A stretch of DNA of 33,639 nt from positions 1 to 33,639 of the forward strand of contig JALAGF010005973.1 of assembly GCA_030167865.1 (NCBI GenBank). Direction: 5' to 3'. The notes under the pieces are model-generated. The model saw nothing but the letters and a program-made list of their open reading frames with translations, searched no databases and was not told the origin of the DNA. Of the stretch, positions 1-32,533 are shown piece by piece; the stretch's first letter is position 1; the number at the start of each line of letters is the position of its first letter. The DNA comes from Craspedostauros australis (taxonomy: Eukaryota). The position numbers were made by a program, and so were the translations under genes.

Positions 1-1
1 G

Positions 2-1351
2 AGCATCCATGTCAATGGGATCATGAAGCGCATGGGCCTGACATCCACCACGCACGCCCCGTGCCTTTACACTGGACTCATCCGCGGTGAGCGTGTCTTC
101 ATACTCCGGCAAGTCGATGACTTCGCAGTCGCCACATCACGACGGCACACCTACATCGCGTTCTGTGATTTGCTTGACGAGCAACTCAATCAACCTATCA
201 CTAGGCATGGACTCTTCTCCCACTACAATGGGCTTGACCTCACTCAGGGCCGATCACATGTGACAGTACACTGCACCACATACCTGAACAAGGTGCTCCA
301 AAAGCATGGATGGCAAGATCTTCGGTCGTCGCAACGACTCCCCATGCGCGCGGACAACGGGTACATTCGACAACTGGACAGTGCAGACGTCCCAGCTACT
401 GAAGGAGAGCGGCGACAACTACAGGCATCGTTCTTCAGTTATCGGCAGGCCATTGGTGAACTGATTTGGGCCATGGTTTCGTGCCGTCCGGACATATCGT
501 TCCCCNTGGTAAANCTCAGCCAGTTTTCCGTCAACCCGGCCAAGNTCCATTATGAGGCGGTCAAATACCTCTTCCGATACATTGCTGCCACCAGGGAGCT
601 TGGAATCACGTACTGGCGGCCGTCGCCCCTGCCTGATCTTCCAGACATACCTGTGCCGCTGCCCCTTTCACCACCTGAGGACATTTCGCACAACGTGGAC
701 GATCATGAGACAGTCCGATTTTCCACGGTCTATGGGTACGTGGACGCCGACTGGGGCTCCGATATTCGCCATCGGCGCTCGGTCACTGGCATCGTGTTCA
801 TGTTCGGCGGCGCTGCCGTCGCGTGGAAGACTCGTGTCCAGCCGACCGTGTCCCTCAGCAGCTCCGAAGCCGAGTTTGTCGCTGCCAGCGATGCTGGCCG
901 CATGGCTCTGTGGCTTCGTTCCATCCTCGATGAGATCGGGGTGTCGCAACAGCACGCCACTCTCATCTTCGAGGACAATCGAGGAGCACGCATGATGGCC
1001 AACGCAAGTCAGCCTACACGGAATTCGAGACATATTGATATCCGAACCTTCGCGGTCAGTGACTGGGTGGATCGGGATCTTATTCTTATCGAGGACGTCG
1101 CATCCGATCTCAACGCAGCGGATGCATGCACCAAACAGACGCCGTCGGTTCTCTTTTTCCGCCATACTGACTTGATAATGGGTCGCTTCCGCCCGTCTTT
1201 CGCTCAAGACCATGATGGGCGTCGCTCGGTCAGAGCAATTTTTCCCGCTGGAAATCTTCCAGCGTGGGGGGGTGTTGGCATACGTACGCAGGACAGACGT
1301 CCGCAGCCTCCGCCTCTGAAGAGTGACAACGGAGACAGTCTCCTCCCATAA
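2..1351 (+). CDS. pol: Copia polyprotein, partial (reverse transcriptase C-terminal half + RNase H); 5'-truncated by the window edge
   Basis: The frame is open from base 2. RT motifs: PCLY..LRQVDDF, YRQAIGELIW..CRPDI. RNase H motifs: GYVDADW..RRSVTG..SSSEAEF..EDN..RHIDIR..NAADACTK. Confidence 0.93.
   Translation, partial: SIHVNGIMKRMGLTSTTHAPCLYTGLIRGERVFILRQVDDFAVATSRRHTYIAFCDLLDEQLNQPITRHGLFSHYNGLDLTQGRSHVTVHCTTYLNKVLQKHGWQDLRSSQRLPMRADNGYIRQLDSADVPATEGERRQLQASFFSYRQAIGELIWAMVSCRPDISFPXVXLSQFSVNPAKXHYEAVKYLFRYIAATRELGITYWRPSPLPDLPDIPVPLPLSPPEDISHNVDDHETVRFSTVYGYVDADWGSDIRHRRSVTGIVFMFGGAAVAWKTRVQPTVSLSSSEAEFVAASDAGRMALWLRSILDEIGVSQQHATLIFEDNRGARMMANASQPTRNSRHIDIRTFAVSDWVDRDLILIEDVASDLNAADACTKQTPSVLFFRHTDLIMGRFRPSFAQDHDGRRSVRAIFPAGNLPAWGGVGIRTQDRRPQPPPLKSDNGDSLLP
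1266..1272 (+). other. Polypurine tract (PPT) of the copia element
   Basis: GGGGGGG lies immediately 5' of TG at the LTR start, downstream of the RNase H domain. Confidence 0.75.
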
Positions 1352-1462
1352 ATCCATCATTAGCACACACACACACACACATCCTCCCGTACAGATACTG
1401 ACAGGATCATCGTAGAGCACAGCTACGATCCAGTCCCGGAGTAGTGCCGAGATTAGTTGACA
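1273..1462 (+). repeat. Putative 3' LTR (~190 bp), TGT...ACA termini
   Basis: Starts TGTTGG right after the PPT and contains a TATA-like CATAAAT (~1347-1353) and (CA)9 at 1364-1381). The right end at TTGACA (1457-1462) is inferred and cannot be verified without the 5' LTR. Confidence 0.6.
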
Positions 1463-3019: not shown

Positions 3020-3391
3020 TCATTGATTCAATGGTCGGAATGCCAACGGAAAATCGCTGACTGGAAGGTCGTCAGTGTCATCTTCTGCCAATATTTGGAG
3101 GGTGTCGTCCAGGATGGATTCCAGCAGTTGGAATGAATTGGCTGGTGCCGGAGCGCGGCTGCCGGTGTCGGAGACAGGCAGCAGCACCGCGTCTTGGAAA
3201 AGAGAGCTGCCCAGCGGATCCTGTGGATTCATATTTGGTCTGTAGCACGTGGATCTCTGTTGCCATGTGGGAGTGCGTGCTTGTTGTTGTTGTTGCTGAT
3301 GGTGCTGCGGCTGGTGTCTGCAAAGTGGGGTGCCATTCAGAGCGCAACCGAGGTTGCATGATGATGGGATGTTCTTCTGCGATGGACACAT
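3020..3391 (-). CDS. Small hypothetical protein (123 aa), Gln/His-rich, with an acidic amphipathic C-terminal helix
   Basis: The ATG has A at -3 and a long C/A-rich leader like the leaders of the real genes in this window. It encodes poly-Q and C-terminal LLESILDDTLQILAEDDTDD. No recognised domain. Confidence 0.55.
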   Translation of the reverse strand: MCPSQKNIPSSCNLGCALNGTPLCRHQPQHHQQQQQQARTPTWQQRSTCYRPNMNPQDPLGSSLFQDAVLLPVSDTGSRAPAPANSFQLLESILDDTLQILAEDDTDDLPVSDFPLAFRPLNQ

Positions 3392-4398
3392 GCTGTGATG
3401 GTTTCTTTGTGTTCTTGCTTGTGAGTTTGGTTTGGCTGTGGTTGCTGTGGTTTGTTCTGGTTTTTGATTTTATGAGAGAAGTGAACCGTGTTGGCAGATT
3501 GATTGATTGATTGATTGGTTCATTGGTTGGTTGTGTGGATCTGACTGACGCTTGATCCTCCATCCAGCCGGCGAGGTACTTTTGCGTGTGATGTGATCGA
3601 ATGTCTCGTACTCGTGCGTTGTTACAGTCAGAGGCTTGTGTCCAAAGAAACGCACAAGCGCGCAAACGAGAGAGTGCGCGAAAAGAATGGTGGAGGTGGT
3701 TTCGGAGAAGTACGGCGCAGTGATGCCTTTTGTTGAGATTTCTGCGGTTGGCGATTGACGGAGTTATTATGAGCGTGTTATGGACAGCGTTTGCTTAATT
3801 TGTTGCAACAACTCATAGCCCATTCCCGGGTTTTGACAAATTCCAAAGAAGCCCCCTGATTGGCAATGAGTCATGATCGGACAACAAGTCCATGTGGTGC
3901 ATGATGTTCACGAAGGAACACCAATGCGATCCCCAACGGCGCAGAATTAGTCGGTCTGATGTTGACATGTCATAGGAGAGAACATGAATAGGTACCGATT
4001 CGATGAGCGGAGAGCATAATTATTGGCTCTGCTCCACAAGCCCACAATCCAAATACGTACGATCTACTCCGGAATGTGAAAACGCACACAAAAATCCACA
4101 AAGTCCCAACATACAATCGCTTTGGTTGGAAGGTTTCGCCTCTACGGAATTGCTGTGACAAGAGATGAAGGTTAAACCTTTTCGGACGATCGCCATGGAG
4201 CTCATGGAACACATCCCCATGTTGGACGGAACTAATCTAAAGCGATCTTTCGTGCGCGTTTGTTGTGGGTGGGTTGGTAGTGGGGATGTCCATCTCCACT
4301 GCACTTCACCAACGTGAGTTTGCGATGTCGATTGTGGATCGAAAACGCGAACATCATTTGAACAACGATACATCATTCATGCCAGTGCAGAATGCAGA

Positions 4399-5825
4399 GT
4401 GTTGTTCTGGACGAGTGGGTGCGCCCGCGAAGATTTGGCACCACACAGAGTTCATTCAAGTGCTCTCTACAGCATAGTGTTTCGCCTGTGTAGGTTCAGG
4501 AGAAGTCGTGTCCATGTTCACATTCGGTTCCAACTCCAGACAAAGAGATCAGGCAAGGAACCTATTACATGAACTTCCCCCCAAAGGACAAGAGCCATCC
4601 ACGAAAGATTGAAGGTCGACATTCGACTCGGACCTTCAAAACCTTGCTGGCTGCTGAGGAGGACTTGTTTGGACACCTTAGATGAGCACCTGACGTGATC
4701 GCAACAGGCCGCTCTTGGTGTGCCGAAGCGGAGAGTGTCTGGAGCGTGTCAAACCTCAACCCCCCAAGATCACAAACGCGAAGGCGCGATTCATACCGCC
4801 TCGTACTGATGCATACGACGAGTTGCGGGTGGGCAGGTACCAACTCCTCGCAACGCCCAAGTAAGTATAGTAGCCCAACATAGTGGCTTGGCATAGTATG
4901 AATATGCCGACAAGTGCTCAAGAATACTCCTATCACACAGCGTAGGCACATTATCTGCCATCTTTCTTCGCTGCTCCAGCTCCTGTTGCAGGGGCTTTCC
5001 AGGCTCGGTGCTTGATGCGAAGAAGTGGAAGAAAATGCTCTTTGTTGCTGAGATTGCGCCTGTACGAGAACGTATGGATACCTATTCTCATACCACAGCG
5101 CATCCTCCCCTAGTTCCGTGTTCTGAGATCTCCGACCTCTGTGTGGAAGTTGTGAATTTATTGTGAGCCTCTTTGTTCGTGAGACGGCCTGCATCGCTCA
5201 GGTTCTCTCTCTCTCTCTCGCCGCATAGTTCCCGTAATAAGTCTACTCTATCCGTGTTCACCTTCCTCTCCTTCACGTGCACCCAAGCGATTCATCGAAG
5301 GTGGGATCGCAATCCAAGATATACTACTATACAAGCCATCAAAATCATTCTCGCTTCACAAGGCGTCGGTGATGTTCGGAATGCCATTTCATCGCGCACA
5401 TTCGGCCTTCTTGCTGCATCCATACAATCACATTCGGCAAAACCTTCAATGAGCCTACTCGTACAGTACGGAGAAAATGAGACTCTACCCCCTTGTGGAA
5501 TGGGCTTCGTGTGCTCTTCTCCTTCCCCTGGTTCATGTTCTAGCTCGTACCCTGACGTCGATCATCGCACGATTCCTACAACTCGTACGACTACTAATAC
5601 GTTCATGATGTCACTCGGGCCGCCATCACAAGTACACTCCGAAAGCTGAGTGAGGGCCTGGAATAGGGTACCGGCCTCTGCTCTTTTCTTTCGGGGAATC
5701 TGGTTCCTCTCTTGGGGGTGTTGAGGGTGGGTACAATTGCGATTGAGCCCAGCAAAGTCCATCAAAGTTCAGTAATAGGTGCTATGCCACACTGTAGCCT
5801 GTGGGCTCGTCCAGAAGAGTAACAT
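4399..5825 (+). ncRNA. Candidate long structured RNA or fold-back element of unknown identity
   Basis: Nested collinear inverted matches include 4405-4415/5806-5816 (11 bp), 4560-4576/5765-5780 (16 bp, 1 bulge), 4644-4650/5749-5755 and 4754-4769/5710-5726 (16 bp, 1 bulge). There are also many local hairpins, with G-T oppositions on the + strand. No known RNA family recognised. Confidence 0.35.
5204..5219. repeat. (TC)8 microsatellite
   Basis: Direct reading of the sequence. Confidence 0.9.
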
Positions 5826-6056
5826 ACGTACGTACTCGCAGGAGTAAGATCGTACCCAACAGGTACACGGAGGCATCGTGTTCATGCTGATGGTGTCAGA
5901 CGCGCACGTGCGCGTACACATCCGTCACCACCCAAATGGGTTGCGTCGGTGCCATTCATATTTTACATACGACTACGTACGACTACGTACTTCATGAGAA
6001 CTCGAAGGCATGAGAACAGAGTACTCCAGTCTGCTACACATGCTCTGCTCATTGCT

Positions 6057-8050
6057 CTATGCCTTCTTCGGCTTGGCTTTGGTTGGGTCAGTGTACTGTC
6101 TGTAGATGTCATCAATCTCCTCATGTACGTCATCGCCGAGCTTCGTATCGTAGGCCTTCAAGTTCTCCTCCAGCTGATCGAGTCTGGTGGCACCAATAAT
6201 GGTCGAGGCAACGCGTTCGCTGTGGTAGCACCAGGAGAGAGCCAATTCCGATGGGCTCATTCCGTTCGCCTCAGCGAGCGAGCAGTACGCGTTGACAGCG
6301 GCCTCGTTCTGGCTGCCGAGGTAGCGCTCCATGTAACCAGGAAACATGCTGAGACGGGCGCCTTCGACGGGGCCCTGGCGGTACTTTCCGCTCAACGATC
6401 CACCGGCCAGCGGCGAGTAGGCCAGAAGACCGACGTTGTGGTGGTAGCACGCCTCGCAGAGACCTGCCTCAAAGTCCTTGCGGACGACCAAGGAGTAGCT
6501 GTTTTGGATCGAAACGATCTTGGGGTACAGATCTGGGTACGACTTCGCTAGTTGGGCCATGGCGCACACGCCGTACGGTGTCTCGTTGGAGACACCGAAG
6601 TATCGCACCTTGCCGGCCTTCGCCAATTCCTGACATGCGGCCAGCTGCGCCTCGAAGTCGACGAACTGCGCCTTCGCCAGTTCCTCCTCGCAGGCGGATG
6701 GCAAGAAATCAGGCTGGCCAAACCTGCCACCAGTGTATCGATCCGGCCAGTGGAGCTGGAGCAGATCGATGTAATCAATCCCCAGGCGTTCCAACGATCG
6801 GTCGACGGAGTACAGAATTTGTTCCTTGGTCAACGCGCTGGTCGTCTCTGGCTCTTCTCGTGGGAGCCAGTTGATAATGGAACGACCGGCGACCTTGGTG
6901 GCCACGACGACATCCTCGCGGTCGCGTCCCTCCAGGAACATGCGAACGGATTCGTCGGTGCGGCCCTGGGTGTCGGGTTTGGTTGGAACGGGGTAGATCT
7001 CGGCCGTGTCCAAGAAGTTGATGCCATACTCGTCAAATGCCCTGTTCAGCTGCTCGGCGCCTTCCTCCAATGTGTTTTGCTCGCCAAAGGTCATCGTTCC
7101 CATGCAGACCTGTCGTCGTTGTCGTTTCCCACGATGCATAATATAATACGAGTAGAGAAGAGTATGAGACAGGAGTATCGTCGCCACAGCATGACCACCA
7201 TCCATTGCAGCATTACCAATCGTGTTGCGAGGTAGGACGAAGAACGCAATGGGCAATGTGCGTCATCCATACGAAGATGCGCACGCGTGAGAAATCAAGG
7301 TGTGTTGTACGTATGGCATGGAAGGTGATTGGGTAAGATTTGGTGCGGTCCAGTTCGATTCGATCGGAGTTGATTGAACAGATGATGGCCTCCCCATCAG
7401 ATCTGGTTCCGTTCAATCGTTGCGCGTTTGTATCCTTCCGCTTTGTTGAAACGCTTCGTTCCCACCTTGTCTCGCACACGCTTCTCACCTTGGAAACCAC
7501 AAGATCCGAATCTCCCAGTTGAATGTAATCCATCCCGTTCTTCAACCCTGGCACGGCATGGTTGCCGATCGCTTGCTTCGCCTTGGCAGGGCTGGAGAGA
7601 GCATCCGATGTGCTGCGAAGCACGCAAGTGAGTTGGCAGTACGAGTATGCAAGTGGATGTTGTTATGGTACAACGTTGTTGCGCAGCATCATATGGTGTG
7701 GCGTGGCATGACACGTTTGTCGTGTTGCTTGTTCGTAAGTGCAATGTTGAGAGGATGTGGTGTATCATGCATATTGATATCGTTGATGTGGTGTGCTGCG
7801 ACCGTGATGTGATACGAGCACATGTGGTTGGATGGGATGATCGGATGTACGAGCTGTGTGGTGTCCACATGCTTGTCGGCCACATCCAACTCACAATCAT
7901 CAGAATGCAGCGCGTGCATCGAGACACAGTCATCGAAATGCAATGGGTGCTCGAAGGACAGCAGCACTGGCAAAGATGGAGATCGAAGCACGCTCACCTC
8001 AAAGTCTGCAATAGCAGGGCGACAATCGCAGTTGAACGGAACATGGTCAT
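6057..8050 (-). CDS. Aldo-keto reductase, Tas-like, with bipartite (probably plastid) presequence; exons 8050-7998, 7612-7489, 7109-6057 (409 aa)
   Basis: The spliced product is MTMFRSTAIVALLLQTLSTSDA-LSSPAK...LGDSDLVVSKVCMGTMTFGEQ. AKR catalytic motifs are DTAEIY, VATKV and QLHWPD, with GVSNET, SIQNSYSL, LAYSPLAGG and IIGAT. Both introns are GT-AG and phase-compatible. Confidence 0.92.
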
Positions 8051-17811: not shown

Positions 17812-19873
17812 TTATTTCTTTGAACCAAACATGTCTCCGAAGAGCTTCTTTGTGACATCTCCAAACTGATAGTCGTCCTTGCCGGTCCACTGATGTGGGG
17901 ATTGGATGGGTGGTGTGGTAGCAAATGAAGGAGACAGTATGAGTACACACATTCGTCGAGCACCTGGCACTATGTTGTGCGAGCCGGAATGGCAGTCCAG
18001 TTGCTCCATGTCGCTATGTTCCCAGGCTGCCGTGACATATCCGAAAGCTGCAATCAGCGAGGCTCAGTCAACACATCACAAGCACGAGGCGTACTTACGT
18101 TGGTAATCGCCTTCTTGGTCAGGTCGCCGAATTCGTAACTAGCGGCAGCCTCCTCACCGAGGTATTCCTTTGCCCAATCCTGACGTCGTTGCTCGATCTC
18201 TGCATGACCAAGGGGTCGACCAAATTGCGAAACATATCAAATACATTAACAATACCAACATGAACAAAAGTATGAGACACGAGCACATGCAACTCAAGGG
18301 TGAAATTCCATTCGAGAAGACGGTACGGAGCACACTGGGCTACAACACAACACAATACCATACAGCACAACGCAACTCACCTCGAGCAACGTCACCGAAT
18401 TCATAGTCATCGTTGCCGGTGAATTCTCCAATCTTGTCCTTCACGCGTGAATCGATGGCACGTGTGATGTCGCCAACTTCATACTCGGTTCCGGTGAATT
18501 CGCTGTACTCGTAACGTGAAGAAAGGAGGGTGAAAGCAAAGGAAGGCGATGTGATGTGGTGTGAGGCATTGAGTATGAAATCCATTCGATTCAAATTGCG
18601 TTCTGCAGAATATCAGCTGACTATCACAGCTGCAAAGTCAAGGGCTGATTCACTCTGTACTTACCCGATCTTGTCCTTAATGTTCTGGTCAATAGCCACC
18701 GTCAGGTCGCCACTTTCGTACGGCTTGCCGGTCATCTACGACATGTCACGGATGATGTATTTGCAGGAGGTTTGACGTGCCCAAATGCAAGATGTGAAGG
18801 AAAGGCAAATAAAGTCGGGACAGTGAGCATCTCAATTTTCTGCAGCTCTTGGATTCACAGGAAGACGTCCACAAACAGATTCACATTCACATGCACAACT
18901 GCATCCAATCATGGGTGCCAAGCACAAGTTGCTATTCACAGGCTTACCTCTTCGACCATTGACTTTGACATTTCATCCATAGCAAGGATGAAATCGCCCA
19001 GCTCATATTCATCCTTTTCTCTCATGCTGTAATCGGGAAGGGGAGTGCGAATGGAAGAAAAGATGGATGATAGGAAGCAGCACAAGTGAGTTCCTGCTGC
19101 GTGTTGTATCATCCCCGAAACGTAGACAGACTGCTCGCCAACTGCTCCATGCTATCTTGACGTGTGATTCTACCGGGTGAGTTCGGGGAAATGCTTGCGG
19201 TGCCCTCCACGATATACTTACGACGAGATTCCCTCCTTGACACGACGATCGATTTCCTTTGAGACGTCACCGATCTGTTCAGAAATGTGGTAGAATTGCA
19301 CGCCATTCATGAAAGGAATGAATTGAATGGGAGCAGATCAAGACATGGAAGCAGGAATGAATGAATTAATGGGTGGATGAGTGAATGAGTGATCTGCCAA
19401 TTCCTACTCGTACAACTTGATCCAATATCTCCCGCACTCTCCAAAGATCGCATTATGTTATTGCTGTGATCCTTTTGCTTACGCGGAACGCCCATCACAA
19501 AAGGTCATGCGAGCCTGCATGCACTCACCTTGTACTCCTCGCTGCCAGTGAAGTCGTTCGTCTTCTGCTGAATGTCATCGATCGTCGATTGGATGGTGTT
19601 GGACAGCTCCATGCCCAAACCGTTCCATTCGTCATCCGTGACCAGGTTGCCCACAAGCTCTTCCTTTTCTTCGGGAGAGGAGAATGTGATGGCGCCATCT
19701 TCATCGCCGGCGGTGTTGTACAGACGCACGCCCGAATGGGATGGGGCAGCGACGAAGGCTGCGGCGGTCTGTCGTTGCAGCGATCGCGCTGCATTCACGT
19801 TGAAACCAGCAACGTTCAACATGGTAGTTGACACAGCAATGGCTGCGATCAGCGCGGATTGTTGGAACTTCAT
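17812..19873 (-). CDS. Uncharacterised probably plastid-targeted YExGD-repeat protein, paralog A; exons 19873-19529, 19274-19222, 19026-18948, 18735-18665, 18502-18381, 18199-18099, 17889-17812 (282 aa)
   Basis: Six GT-AG introns give a continuous frame of 849 nt. The signal peptide ends NVAG-F and is followed by an S/A/R-rich transit-like segment and seven repeats of [FMW]TGxxxYExGD+helix. The exon structure is independently matched by paralog B. Confidence 0.9.
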
Positions 19874-30405: not shown

Positions 30406-32533
30406 ATGAAGATTTCATTCACAGCAGTTGCGTTGCTCGCCTGCCTCAGCACCAGCAGTCAGATGGCCGCCGATGCGTTCACTGTGATGCCATGCACCAG
30501 TGTCCGATCATCCACAGTCGTCGCCGCACCATTCCGGCTCGCTGCAGCGCAACCGGACAGCCCCGATCCAGCGGCAGAATCAGGAGAACCCAGCAAGGAA
30601 GAGAAGGACGAAGCGGTTGGAAACTTGCTGGCAAATGATGAATGGGACGGATTGGGAATGGAATTGTCCGAGATCGTCAAGGTCGCCGTCGTGGAAGACT
30701 TGAAGAAGAATGCCAGAGACTTTTTGGGCAAGGACGAATACAAGGTGCGTCGTATTGCCTTGCGTTGAGTAATCACTGCGTCCTTGCTTCATTGCTCCAT
30801 TGCTCCATTGATTGCACACAAGCAAAGATCATCTGATGAATCTTCATCTCACTTCAACCTCCGTCGATCTCAATTCTTTCTGCCGTCCGATCCCGTCCAT
30901 CACCGCCGTTGCCATTGCCGTCCTCGTCGGGGTGCGCCATTGCCGTTATTGCATTACCATGCATCAACTTGCATACAACAATCAGGTTGGAGATATTTGC
31001 AAGGAAGTCGACACTCGTGTAAAAGGTGAAGTGGCAAAGTGAGTCAATGAGAATGATTCTGTACTGTACTGTGCCGTTCTGTGCTGAACTGAAGTCGCGA
31101 ATCATTCACGTTCGATGATGCCAATGGCTGACTGGAGGTATTTTAATTGATATCACACGAATCTTCGTGGATACGGACAGGTTTCACATGCATAGTTGTA
31201 CCACTTGATCATGGACTCACCCACTTCCATAATTCATGCCGTGACTCGTCCTTTCCTCTTGGATGACCTTTCGCCATGGCACCATGCATTGTAGAATGAG
31301 AGGCAAAGATGAATACGAACTGGGTGACTTTGTACTGGCGATGGATGACATGTCCAAGTCGGTGACGGAAGATGTGAGTACCATCGTGAAGCTTATCCGT
31401 CCCTGATACGATATCCTCGTTTGCTCTTCTGTGCAACACCTGTGCGCATTCGCCTTTATTGCCACCGATGCCAGCATGCGAGATTTCTCACACATTTCTA
31501 CTCCGCTGCTACTGCGATGACAGCTGACGGGCAAACCATACGAGGCAGGTGATCTGTCAAGGGAGATCGATAGTCGGGTGAAGGACAAGGTCAGGTAAGT
31601 CTCAAGGCGTGATCGCATATTCTGCAAATACCACTGTGCGCAAAAGGGGGTACCTTGGCGCTATGGCGATGAAACATGAGCGTGTTGATGAACAATCATT
31701 TGCACACCAACCGCTTGCTAACCAGCACACTCTTTCCACCATTCAATGCTTCTTCAATCAATGATGACGACAACGCTGATGACAACTTACGCCCACGCTA
31801 TTGACGATCATGACTGCAGCGATTTCACTGGCAAGCCATACGAGGCCGGTGACTTGTCGAAGGAGATTGATCGACGCGTGAAGAACAGAGTCAATGAGTT
31901 CACAGGAAAGGACGAGTACGAATTTGGTGATATCGCGAAAGGTACGTGAAGCAAACACGTGTAGTCTGGGTTGCGCATGGTATGGAGATGCCGCAGAATG
32001 ATACACTGAACAAATTGATGTTCCTGTGACGCACAGCATGCAGCGGGTCTCACTTACGCCATGTTATTCATCACGCTTACCAACGGTAATCTCTGTCATA
32101 TTCTTTCACGGTTTGTATGGCTTGAACACAACAGAAGTCGAAGAGAGACGCAAGGTGTGGGTGAAGGACTTTTTGGGAGAAGAGGCAGCGGCCAACTATC
32201 AATTTGGCGACGTCACCAAAGAGGCCATCTCCAGAGTAAGTGGGTTTGTCGCGATTGCGTGCCAACGAATATTCATGCCAATTCATCCAAAGAACGTGCC
32301 TCGTTTACCAATGTCTTGGCTTCACGTGGTTTCTCACCGAGCTGACGCCCGTGCTTTTGCGTGGCGATCGTCCACGCCATGCTCCCTTTGCTACTCATAC
32401 AATCTTTTCATCGCAAACATTATCCTACCATGCGTACTCGCAGTTCACGGGGAAGGACAAGTACGAATTCGGAGACGTGACGAAGAAGATCATGGGCAAC
32501 CTGTTCGGTACCAAGAAGAAGGACGGCAAATAG
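30406..32533 (+). CDS. Uncharacterised probably plastid-targeted YExGD-repeat protein, paralog B; exons 30406-30744, 30986-31038, 31295-31373, 31524-31594, 31820-31941, 32135-32235, 32444-32533 (284 aa)
   Basis: Six GT-AG introns give a continuous frame of 855 nt. The signal peptide ends AADA-F (ASAFAP-type), followed by a transit-like segment and seven [FML][TRL]GKxxYExGD+helix repeats. Internal exon sizes (53/79/71/122/101) are identical to paralog A. Confidence 0.92.

What the first reader, a model, noticed from the sequence alone, without database searches (positions are those of the whole stretch)
4399..5825. ~1.4-kb non-coding segment whose 3' ~110 nt pair piecewise and collinearly with its 5' ~370 nt: candidate novel long structured RNA
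Seen: most of 5710-5816 is the reverse complement of scattered, correctly ordered blocks in 4405-4769. The pairs are TTCTGGACGAG 4405-4415/5806-5816; CTACA+GCATAGT 4467-4478/5781-5797; ACCTATTAC-a-TGAACTT 4560-4576/5765-5780; GGAC 4586-4589/5757-5760; TTGCTGG 4644-4650/5749-5755; GATCGCAA 4697-4704/5737-5744; CCTCAACCCCCCAAGA 4754-4769/5710-5726. Further inward are TTCCAGGCTC 4997-5006/5654-5663 and TCGCTCAG ~5194-5201/5646-5653. Several 5' stretches looped out between these helices form their own hairpins (e.g. TTGAAGGTC 4609-4617/GACCTTCAA 4631-4639). This looks like a multibranched RNA fold with juxtaposed ends rather than a simple terminal inverted repeat. Inference: an unannotated long ncRNA, the structured body of a non-autonomous retroelement, or an endogenised viroid-/virus-like RNA. 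Some short helices are expected by chance and two conflict with local hairpins, but the two 16-bp helices and the 11-bp helix in nested order are hard to dismiss.
Basis: partly seen in the sequence, partly recalled or inferred. Interest (0 to 1): 0.8.

Follow-up and report, generated by a model that had tools for sequence, protein, structure and literature searches.

The report
Diatom intergenic end-pairing, probably coincidental
A gene-free 1.4-kb stretch of a diatom genome has short pieces near its two ends that could pair with each other, but the match is only a little stronger than ordinary DNA gives, the middle does not fold unusually, and no copy, relative or transcript was found, so a new RNA is possible but not shown.

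Summary
The listed blocks are at the stated coordinates in a single-copy, non-coding gap of a diatom nuclear genome. Only three helices carry weight: 11 bp (4405/5816) and two bulged 16-bp helices (4560/5780, 4754/5726). Their nesting is the strongest long-range pairing in the window, but its significance depends on the score used. It was reached by 5 of 1079 and 25 of 1572 whole-window shuffles, by 3 of 70 real 10-kb pieces and by 5 of 79 real 11-bp anchors on energy, and it is not significant under a normalised model. Whole element, 5' arm and interior fold no better than shuffles; G-U pairs do not pick a strand. No Rfam match, telomerase template, ribozyme core, target-site duplication, second copy or homolog was found; covariation and expression could not be tested. 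Best reading: coincidence in ordinary intergenic DNA (0.5). Rivals: DNA-level inverted patchwork (0.23), new kilobase RNA with a zipped terminal arm (0.22). The scan earlier noted a 1-kb folded RNA in another diatom; its 18S-antisense 5' end is not matched here.

The parts
4399..4416 (+). 5' strand of the terminal helix (11 perfect pairs 4405-4415, extendable with G-U pairs and a 3-nt bulge); partner 5805-5825
   Evidence: p 0.91 for 4406-4416
4467..4480 (+). block pairing with 5781-5804 in two alternative registers
4560..4576 (+). 5' strand of bulged 16-bp helix (9+7); partner 5765-5780
4609..4639 (+). local 9-bp hairpin; the only looped-out stretch that folds better than its shuffles
   Evidence: p 0.92; z -2.35 for 4590-4643
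4644..4704 (+). two 7-bp blocks (4644-4650, 4698-4704) complementary to 5749-5755 and 5737-5743; chance-level, out-competed by local hairpins
4754..4769 (+). 5' strand of bulged 16-bp helix (7+9, includes a C6 run); partner 5710-5726
4770..5709 (.). interior: non-coding, no excess structure; holds a (TC)8 repeat at 5204-5219 and donor-like sites at 4861, 5163, 5179
5710..5825 (+). 3' arm holding the reverse complements of the blocks in collinear order
6057..7560 (-). convergent neighbour: aldo/keto reductase gene with one intron (about 7113-7485); best relatives 64-77% identical, named ones are diatoms
3020..3391 (-). divergent neighbour: probable small low-complexity protein gene; weakly coding, no Pfam family

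Best explanation
Ordinary single-copy intergenic DNA of a diatom (the promoter side of the divergent gene at about 3500 plus the gap to the convergent aldo/keto reductase gene). Three moderately long inverted matches happen to nest there. Once an 11-16-bp anchor is fixed and one-sided loops of 50-80 nt are allowed, further 4-8-bp blocks can nearly always be filled in, which gives the look of a piecewise, collinear arm. Shown: the matches exist, the DNA is non-coding and single-copy, and the rest of the segment has no excess structure. Inferred: that the matches have no function.
For: No excess folding: whole element z +0.43/-0.69, 5' arm z -0.04 with 46 of 100 shuffles as good, interior z +1.25, no 150-nt window starting between 4400 and 5750 below z -1.83 on either strand. 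Normalised chain model: the best parse is one 16-bp helix, reached by 39 of 284 and 53 of 301 shuffles and by 46 and 58 of 117 real tiles. With G-U allowed: 41 of 1530 shuffles, 23 of 130 tile-strands, + and - strands equal at 24.8 and 24.0 bits. Real anchors: 5 of 79 scored (of 177) reach -36 kcal/mol; 4 of the 5 come from one repeat-rich locus and the next values are -34.8 and -34.6. Real 10-kb pieces: 3 of 70 reach the three-helix score. First pairs flanking the 14 long-range blocks: 8 G-U on + against 5 on -. Ends of almost any RNA fold close together (PMC6193969, abstract).
Against: The triple (11, 16, 16 bp) is the only nested triple of strong helices in the window; none occurred in 674,313 real bases and only 5 of 1079 window shuffles had one, at the looser 11-bp threshold. 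Description-length score: 1 of 1591 shuffles and 1 of 142 tiles, that one tile lying upstream of the 18S gene. Co-folding gain -36.1 kcal/mol, the best of 249 slid controls, one of which is the element itself (next -32.7; boundaries chosen after the fact). The 3' arm is unusually densely covered and both arms sit inside one gene-free gap.
Confidence: 0.5

Rival explanations
1. A stand-alone + strand non-coding RNA of about 1.4 kb, probably made by RNA polymerase II and possibly spliced. Its last 110 nt zip onto the first 370 nt to form a terminal arm of stacked helices with hairpins looped out on the 5' side; this would protect and join the ends and leave a flexible interior as a protein scaffold, as in yeast telomerase RNA (recalled analogy). 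All steps inferred.
For: Nested triple rare in shuffles and absent from 674 kb of real DNA. Pair probabilities 0.83-0.97 for the outer helices; most of 5765-5825 is paired in the minimum-energy fold. Gain larger on + (-36.1) than on - (-27.1). It fills its own slot between a divergent and a convergent gene. Donor-like sites at 4314, 4861, 5163, 5179 on +. An unchecked scan note reports an abundant 1-kb folded RNA in another diatom (e1-7505578), a lead only.
Against: No excess structure outside the outer helices; significance vanishes under two of the scoring schemes; no G-U strand bias; no Rfam match at E up to 10; no promoter motif shared with the genome's U1, U2, U6, MRP or SRP genes at either end; acceptor sites score far below the genome's rDNA introns.
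Confidence: 0.22
2. A DNA-level relic: the 3' arm is an inverted patchwork copy of the 5' arm, made by polymerase template switching during repair of a break or left by a decayed transposon with terminal inverted repeats, so the complementarity is historical and not selected.
For: The segment begins TGTT (4400) and ends AACA (5824), like element termini. The arms are CpG-poor (observed/expected 0.67 and 0.27, against 0.98 inside and about 1.0 nearby; small counts). The strongest real-genome competitors include plain DNA repeats: a 27-bp inverted repeat in L140 and tandem-derived blocks in L044. Short templated inverted insertions of about 5-34 bp are documented in yeast (PMC11724301, abstract).
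Against: Single copy, no target-site duplication at these ends, no coding remnant. Neutral decay should give scattered substitutions, not five one-sided gaps of 45-80 nt between near-perfect blocks. The yeast events are local fold-backs, not six to eight switches over 1 kb.
Confidence: 0.23
3. A decayed or lineage-specific spliced protein gene on the + strand (exons 4165-4313, 4708-4860, 4941-5162 join in frame to about 176 codons). The 5' arm would lie mostly in the first intron and pair with the 3' untranslated region, perhaps affecting splicing.
For: Each open frame ends at a donor-like site (4314, 4861, 5163) and the junction phases agree (read by hand). The first exon gives a weak Atlas lead to leucine-rich-repeat clusters (score 0.88, family on 16% of members).
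Against: Coding scores -0.31, -0.11 and -0.19 bits per codon against a held-out coding median of +0.33; no relative for exon 2 or exon 3 (the one hit is a repeat protein); no Pfam family at its cut-off; acceptors unlike the genome's rDNA introns.
Confidence: 0.05

Closest known systems
Budding-yeast telomerase RNA TLC1 terminal arm (recalled, not from a call)
   Same: Kilobase length, 5' and 3' ends joined by a long interrupted arm, modest overall folding energy.
   Different: No template for this genome's TTAGGG repeat; no pseudoknot/template core identified; no transcript evidence. The two telomerase RNA papers searched do not mention diatoms in their main text (PMC8287931, PMC12133305; supplements not read).
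Generic end-to-end proximity of mRNAs and lncRNAs (PMC6193969, abstract)
   Same: Ends brought together by base pairing without special selection.
   Different: Here three helices are longer than typical chance helices, so some excess over the generic effect remains.
MITE / fold-back elements and solo LTRs (recalled)
   Same: Non-coding, TG...CA ends, complementary termini.
   Different: One copy, no target-site duplication, arms of 370 and 110 nt that match only in blocks.
Retrozymes, viroid-like RNAs and obelisks (recalled)
   Same: Size near 1 kb, branched fold with adjoining ends proposed.
   Different: No ribozyme, no rod fold, no long terminal repeats, no protein relative of the 209-codon antisense frame.
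1-kb folded RNA of a freshwater diatom (scan note e1-7505578, unchecked)
   Same: Diatom, kilobase size, non-coding.
   Different: That RNA is reported as abundant and highly folded with an 18S helix-45 antisense 5' end; here neither end pairs with this genome's 18S tail better than 8% of control windows, and the look-ups by sequence found no look-alike.

Membership tests
Telomerase RNA | Template longer than one telomere repeat, complementary to the genome's repeat | tested here: not met
   Telomeres are TTAGGG; 3600-6056 holds one 6-nt permutation only, on the - strand at 5669.
Telomerase RNA | Type-3 snRNA promoter upstream | tested here: inconclusive
   No motif common to U1, U2, U6, MRP and SRP genes was found in this genome, so the test has no standard; PMC8287931 (passages) found conserved elements among stramenopiles only in Blastocystis and its closest relative.
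RNase MRP RNA / SRP RNA / U1, U2, U6 snRNA | Match to the family model; no better copy elsewhere | tested here: not met
   No match in the region at E up to 10; each family has hits on other contigs (the SRP and U1 hits are under the curated cut-off).
U3 snoRNA / nuclear RNase P RNA | Match to the family model or its conserved boxes | tested here: not met
   No match in the region. Neither family was found elsewhere in the assembly either, which does not show absence.
Box C/D guide or U13/snR45-type snoRNA | rRNA-antisense element beyond chance, beside boxes C and D | tested here: not met
   7 matches of 11 nt or more to this genome's 18S on +; 158 of 522 control tiles have as many and 94 of 522 have a 13-pair match. 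End windows rank at 8-63% against the 18S tail.
Sm-class snRNA nested at 4880-5205 | snRNA promoter plus Sm site plus stable fold | tested here: not met
   The 13-mer shared with U2 promoters occurs 8 times in the genome; no Rfam hit in the 20 pattern loci scanned, 5 of them with this exact 13-mer; U1 promoters lack it; fold z -1.23.
Hammerhead retrozyme / viroid-like RNA | Self-cleaving ribozyme core | tested here: not met
   One pattern hit (4603-4660) lacks the cleavage triplet and stem II on reading; no Rfam ribozyme.
Hammerhead retrozyme / viroid-like RNA | Circular RNA | not testable with these tools
   No run was listed.
MITE / fold-back transposon / solo LTR | Many dispersed copies | tested here: not met
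   One match in the assembly, itself (the tool warns counts are lower bounds); none by blastn, nhmmer or tblastx in 949,510 fetched bases.
MITE / fold-back transposon / solo LTR | Target-site duplication | tested here: not met
   None at 4400/5824; seven 4-5-nt repeats at other end pairs among about 800 tried.
Any conserved structured RNA | Compensatory changes in homologs | not testable with these tools
   No homolog reachable: the 14 neighbour-gene loci are 51-80% identical in protein and share no other gene with the window.

The most novel reading that the evidence does not exclude
A single-copy gene for an undescribed 1.4-kb diatom RNA whose last 110 nt act as a continuous spine for stacked helices with the first 370 nt, a scaffold-type RNP RNA of a class not in Rfam, perhaps akin to the kilobase RNA noted in another diatom.
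Probability: 0.2. Interest if true: 0.7.

Novelty: not a real feature. Interest (0 to 1): 0.22.

Why it matters
If real, it would be one of very few kilobase-sized structured RNAs known outside animals, plants and fungi, in a group where U3 and nuclear RNase P RNA were not found in this assembly and where the telomerase RNA papers checked do not mention diatoms. It would be directly testable by RT-PCR and knock-out. As it stands, the useful result is a calibration: nested 11-16-bp long-range helices of this strength turn up in about 1 of 60-200 shuffled windows and roughly once per 230-700 kb of this genome, so such patterns need a homolog or a transcript before they are believed.

Tried and rejected
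Sequencing runs: none was listed, so no reads could be laid; this is no evidence either way. Homologs: neighbour-gene scan of JGI metagenomes gave 14 loci, two of them long genomic contigs, with no similarity to the element and no shared neighbours. Exact patterns found nothing in GTDB genomes or IMG/VR; a 17-mer gave 15 viral loci that match only around the seed. blastn of phages and plasmids: no match. Proteins: 209-codon antisense frame, none of 74 candidates; 89-codon frame, one repeat protein; exon 2, none of 16; Atlas, no usable hit and one weak lead; Pfam on 19 frames, two hits below cut-off. Rejected identities: telomerase RNA, MRP, SRP, U1/U2/U6, U3, RNase P, snoRNA guide, nested Sm RNA, hammerhead, MITE or solo LTR (see membership test). 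My early impression that all mismatches were G-U on the + strand did not survive counting (8 against 5). A lenient chain score gave 5 of 3000 shuffles, but three other chains in the window and at least five in 174 kb of real DNA scored as high, so it was not relied on. The local-alignment score did not recover the proposed chain at all. Literature searches listed nothing on such an RNA in diatoms; only titles and abstract starts were seen.

Full report
Setting. The window is one whole contig of a 66-Mb, 6734-contig eukaryotic assembly with TTAGGG telomeres. The aldo/keto reductase gene next to the element has its best relatives at 64-77% identity, and the named ones are diatoms. The element (4399-5825) lies in a 2.5-kb gap between a probable small gene on the - strand (ORF 3020-3391) and the convergent reductase gene (stop at 6057). 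A coding model trained on this genome scores the frames tested in the gap as non-coding: -0.11 to -0.32 bits per codon, against a held-out coding median of +0.33 and +0.38 for the reductase; one open 150-nt minus-strand frame at 4900 scores +0.11. The element matches only itself in the assembly (the tool warns that counts are lower bounds), and nothing by blastn, nhmmer or tblastx in 949,510 bases of fetched loci.

What is there. All ten listed pairs exist. In the ensemble of 4350-5870 the outer helices are well defined: 4406-4416/5805-5815 (0.91), 4467-4472/5799-5804 (0.90), 4474-4480/5789-5795 (0.94), 4552-4555/5785-5788 (0.97), 4560-4576/5765-5780 (0.93-0.96) and 4754-4769/5710-5726 (0.83-0.84). 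The claim therefore rests on one 11-bp and two bulged 16-bp helices.

Is it more than chance? I used several scores because the answer depends on the score. Favourable results: the co-folding gain of the two arms is -36.1 kcal/mol on + and -27.1 on -, the best of 249 slid controls (mean -11.3, sd 5.2; one control is the element itself, the next is -32.7), with boundaries chosen after the fact. A description-length chain score is reached by 1 of 1591 shuffles of the gap and 1 of 142 real tiles, that tile lying upstream of the 18S gene. A nested triple of strong helices occurs in 5 of 1079 whole-window shuffles and not in 674,313 real bases; nested pairs occur 15 times there and twice elsewhere in the window. 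A summed version is reached by 25 of 1572 window shuffles (11 of 1572 if an outer 9-bp block is added) and by 3 of 70 real pieces of up to 10 kb.

Unfavourable results: with G-U pairs allowed and homopolymers down-weighted, 41 of 1530 shuffles and 23 of 130 tile-strands score as high, and the two strands tie. A normalised model that pays for helix lengths and loops does not link the helices at all (39 of 284 and 53 of 301 shuffles; 46 and 58 of 117 tiles). A gapped local alignment did not recover the chain (13 and 34 of 64 tiles; 0 of 60 shuffles reached the Watson-Crick-only score, whose best alignment lay elsewhere). Anchoring the same geometry on real 11-bp inverted matches, 5 of 79 scored (of 177 available) reach -36; four of the five come from one repeat-rich locus, the next are -34.8 and -34.6, and a window holds about 19 such anchors. 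Taken together the pattern has a probability of about 0.005-0.02 per window against shuffles and about 0.05-0.3 per window against real DNA of this genome: the best in its window, but not far outside what a large scan will meet often.

Is the rest folded? No sign of it. Whole element z +0.43 (+) and -0.69 (-) on 28 shuffles; 5' arm z -0.04; 4876-5210 z -1.23; interior 4770-5709 z +1.25 on 12 shuffles. Of the looped-out stretches only the one with the 9-bp hairpin 4609-4639 is better than shuffles (z -2.35). No 150-nt window starting between 4400 and 5750 goes below z -1.83; the lowest values of the scan (-2.1 to -2.4) lie upstream at 4200-4449. The first pairs flanking the 14 long-range blocks are G-U on + in 8 cases and on - in 5, so wobble does not mark a strand. 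Adjoining ends are a general property of folded RNA (PMC6193969, abstract). Real large RNAs can also have flat global z-scores (recalled), so these results weaken but do not exclude an RNA.

Known RNA families. Rfam gives nothing at gathering score for the window and nothing in the element at E up to 10. MRP, U6, U2, U1 and an SRP-like gene lie on other contigs; U3 and nuclear RNase P RNA were not found anywhere, but the element does not match them. There is no telomerase template: one 6-nt permutation only. A 13-mer at 4840 resembles the U2 promoters, and an Sm-like site lies at 5155, which suggested a nested 325-nt RNA. But the 13-mer occurs 8 times in the genome, no RNA family was found in the 20 pattern loci scanned, U1 promoters lack it and the fold is unremarkable. 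Following scan note e1-7505578 I took the 18S tail from this genome: neither end of the element pairs with it better than 8% of 4480 control windows, and matches to 18S overall are at chance level. One hammerhead-like pattern hit cannot form the core.

Mobile element or DNA relic. The segment starts TGTT and ends AACA, and its arms are CpG-poor (0.67 and 0.27, small counts), but there is no target-site duplication at these ends and no second copy. Short templated inverted insertions are known from yeast break repair (PMC11724301, abstract), and some of the strongest competitors in the real null are plain DNA repeats (L140, L044). A patchwork of six to eight switches over 1 kb would still be unusual.

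Protein gene. Three + strand frames end at donor-like sites (4314, 4861, 5163) and join in phase to about 176 codons (phases read by hand), but they score as non-coding and have no relatives (one weak Atlas lead).

What could not be tested. No sequencing run was listed. No related diatom DNA with this gap was reachable: the 14 loci found through the neighbour gene share no other gene with the window and no sequence with the element, and pattern or blastn searches of bacterial, viral, phage and plasmid collections were empty or seed-only. Expression and covariation, the two tests that would decide, remain open. Literature searches listed nothing on such a diatom RNA. PMC8287931 and PMC12133305 were searched by term only and do not mention diatoms in the main text; their supplements were not read and may list diatom promoters or candidates.

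Verdict. Observation partly confirmed; interpretation undecided, leaning against. Coincidence in ordinary intergenic DNA 0.5, DNA-level inverted patchwork 0.23, new kilobase RNA with a terminal arm 0.22, decayed spliced gene 0.05. Interest 0.22; 0.7 if a transcript and covariation are found.

Noticed in passing
L013 (G000:C5259:1-2615, - strand), L160 (G000:C522, - strand), L014: The nuclear 18S gene carries at least 12 complete spliceosomal introns of 153-246 nt plus two cut by contig ends, with part of the gene unassembled; one splits helix 45 near the 3' end. The phenomenon is known in Chaetocerotaceae, with up to eleven inserts in one 18S (PMC6306197, passages); this genome has more than that.
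   Followed up: partly
L049:41-1138 (G000:C5259, about 0.9-2 kb upstream of the 18S start): Long-range inverted blocks (two of 17 bp plus shorter ones), the top real-genome score; probably external transcribed spacer structure or a spacer repeat.
   Followed up: no
window 1-1462: 3' end of a probable Ty1/copia retrotransposon: reverse transcriptase/RNase H-like frame 23-1351 (recognised from recalled motifs, no Pfam hit), a G-run at about 1266-1272 and a probable LTR at about 1273-1462.
   Followed up: no
whole assembly: U3 snoRNA and nuclear RNase P RNA not found; U1 (5 copies, 41-42 bits) and the SRP-like gene (51.7 bits) fall under Rfam's cut-offs; U2 has 10 copies.
   Followed up: partly
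L055-L064 and L112-L116: U1 and U2 genes share only short upstream features (a GTGTGCG word within about 30 nt of the start and a CAACAC run just before it); U6, MRP and SRP genes do not share them.
   Followed up: partly
window 4165-4311 +: 49-codon frame with a weak Atlas lead to leucine-rich-repeat clusters (0.88, 148 shared features); scores as non-coding.
   Followed up: partly
window 4200-4449 +: The lowest local folding z-scores of the gap (-2.1 to -2.4) lie just upstream of the element, not inside it.
   Followed up: no
L140:677-1901 (G000:C4837): A 27-pair inverted match 1.2 kb apart, the highest real-genome score.
   Followed up: no
window 31527-32484 and 18111-18495: Related 43-67-nt repeats (79% identical) and inverted matches between these two regions suggest a repeated-motif protein family present twice in the window.
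   Followed up: no
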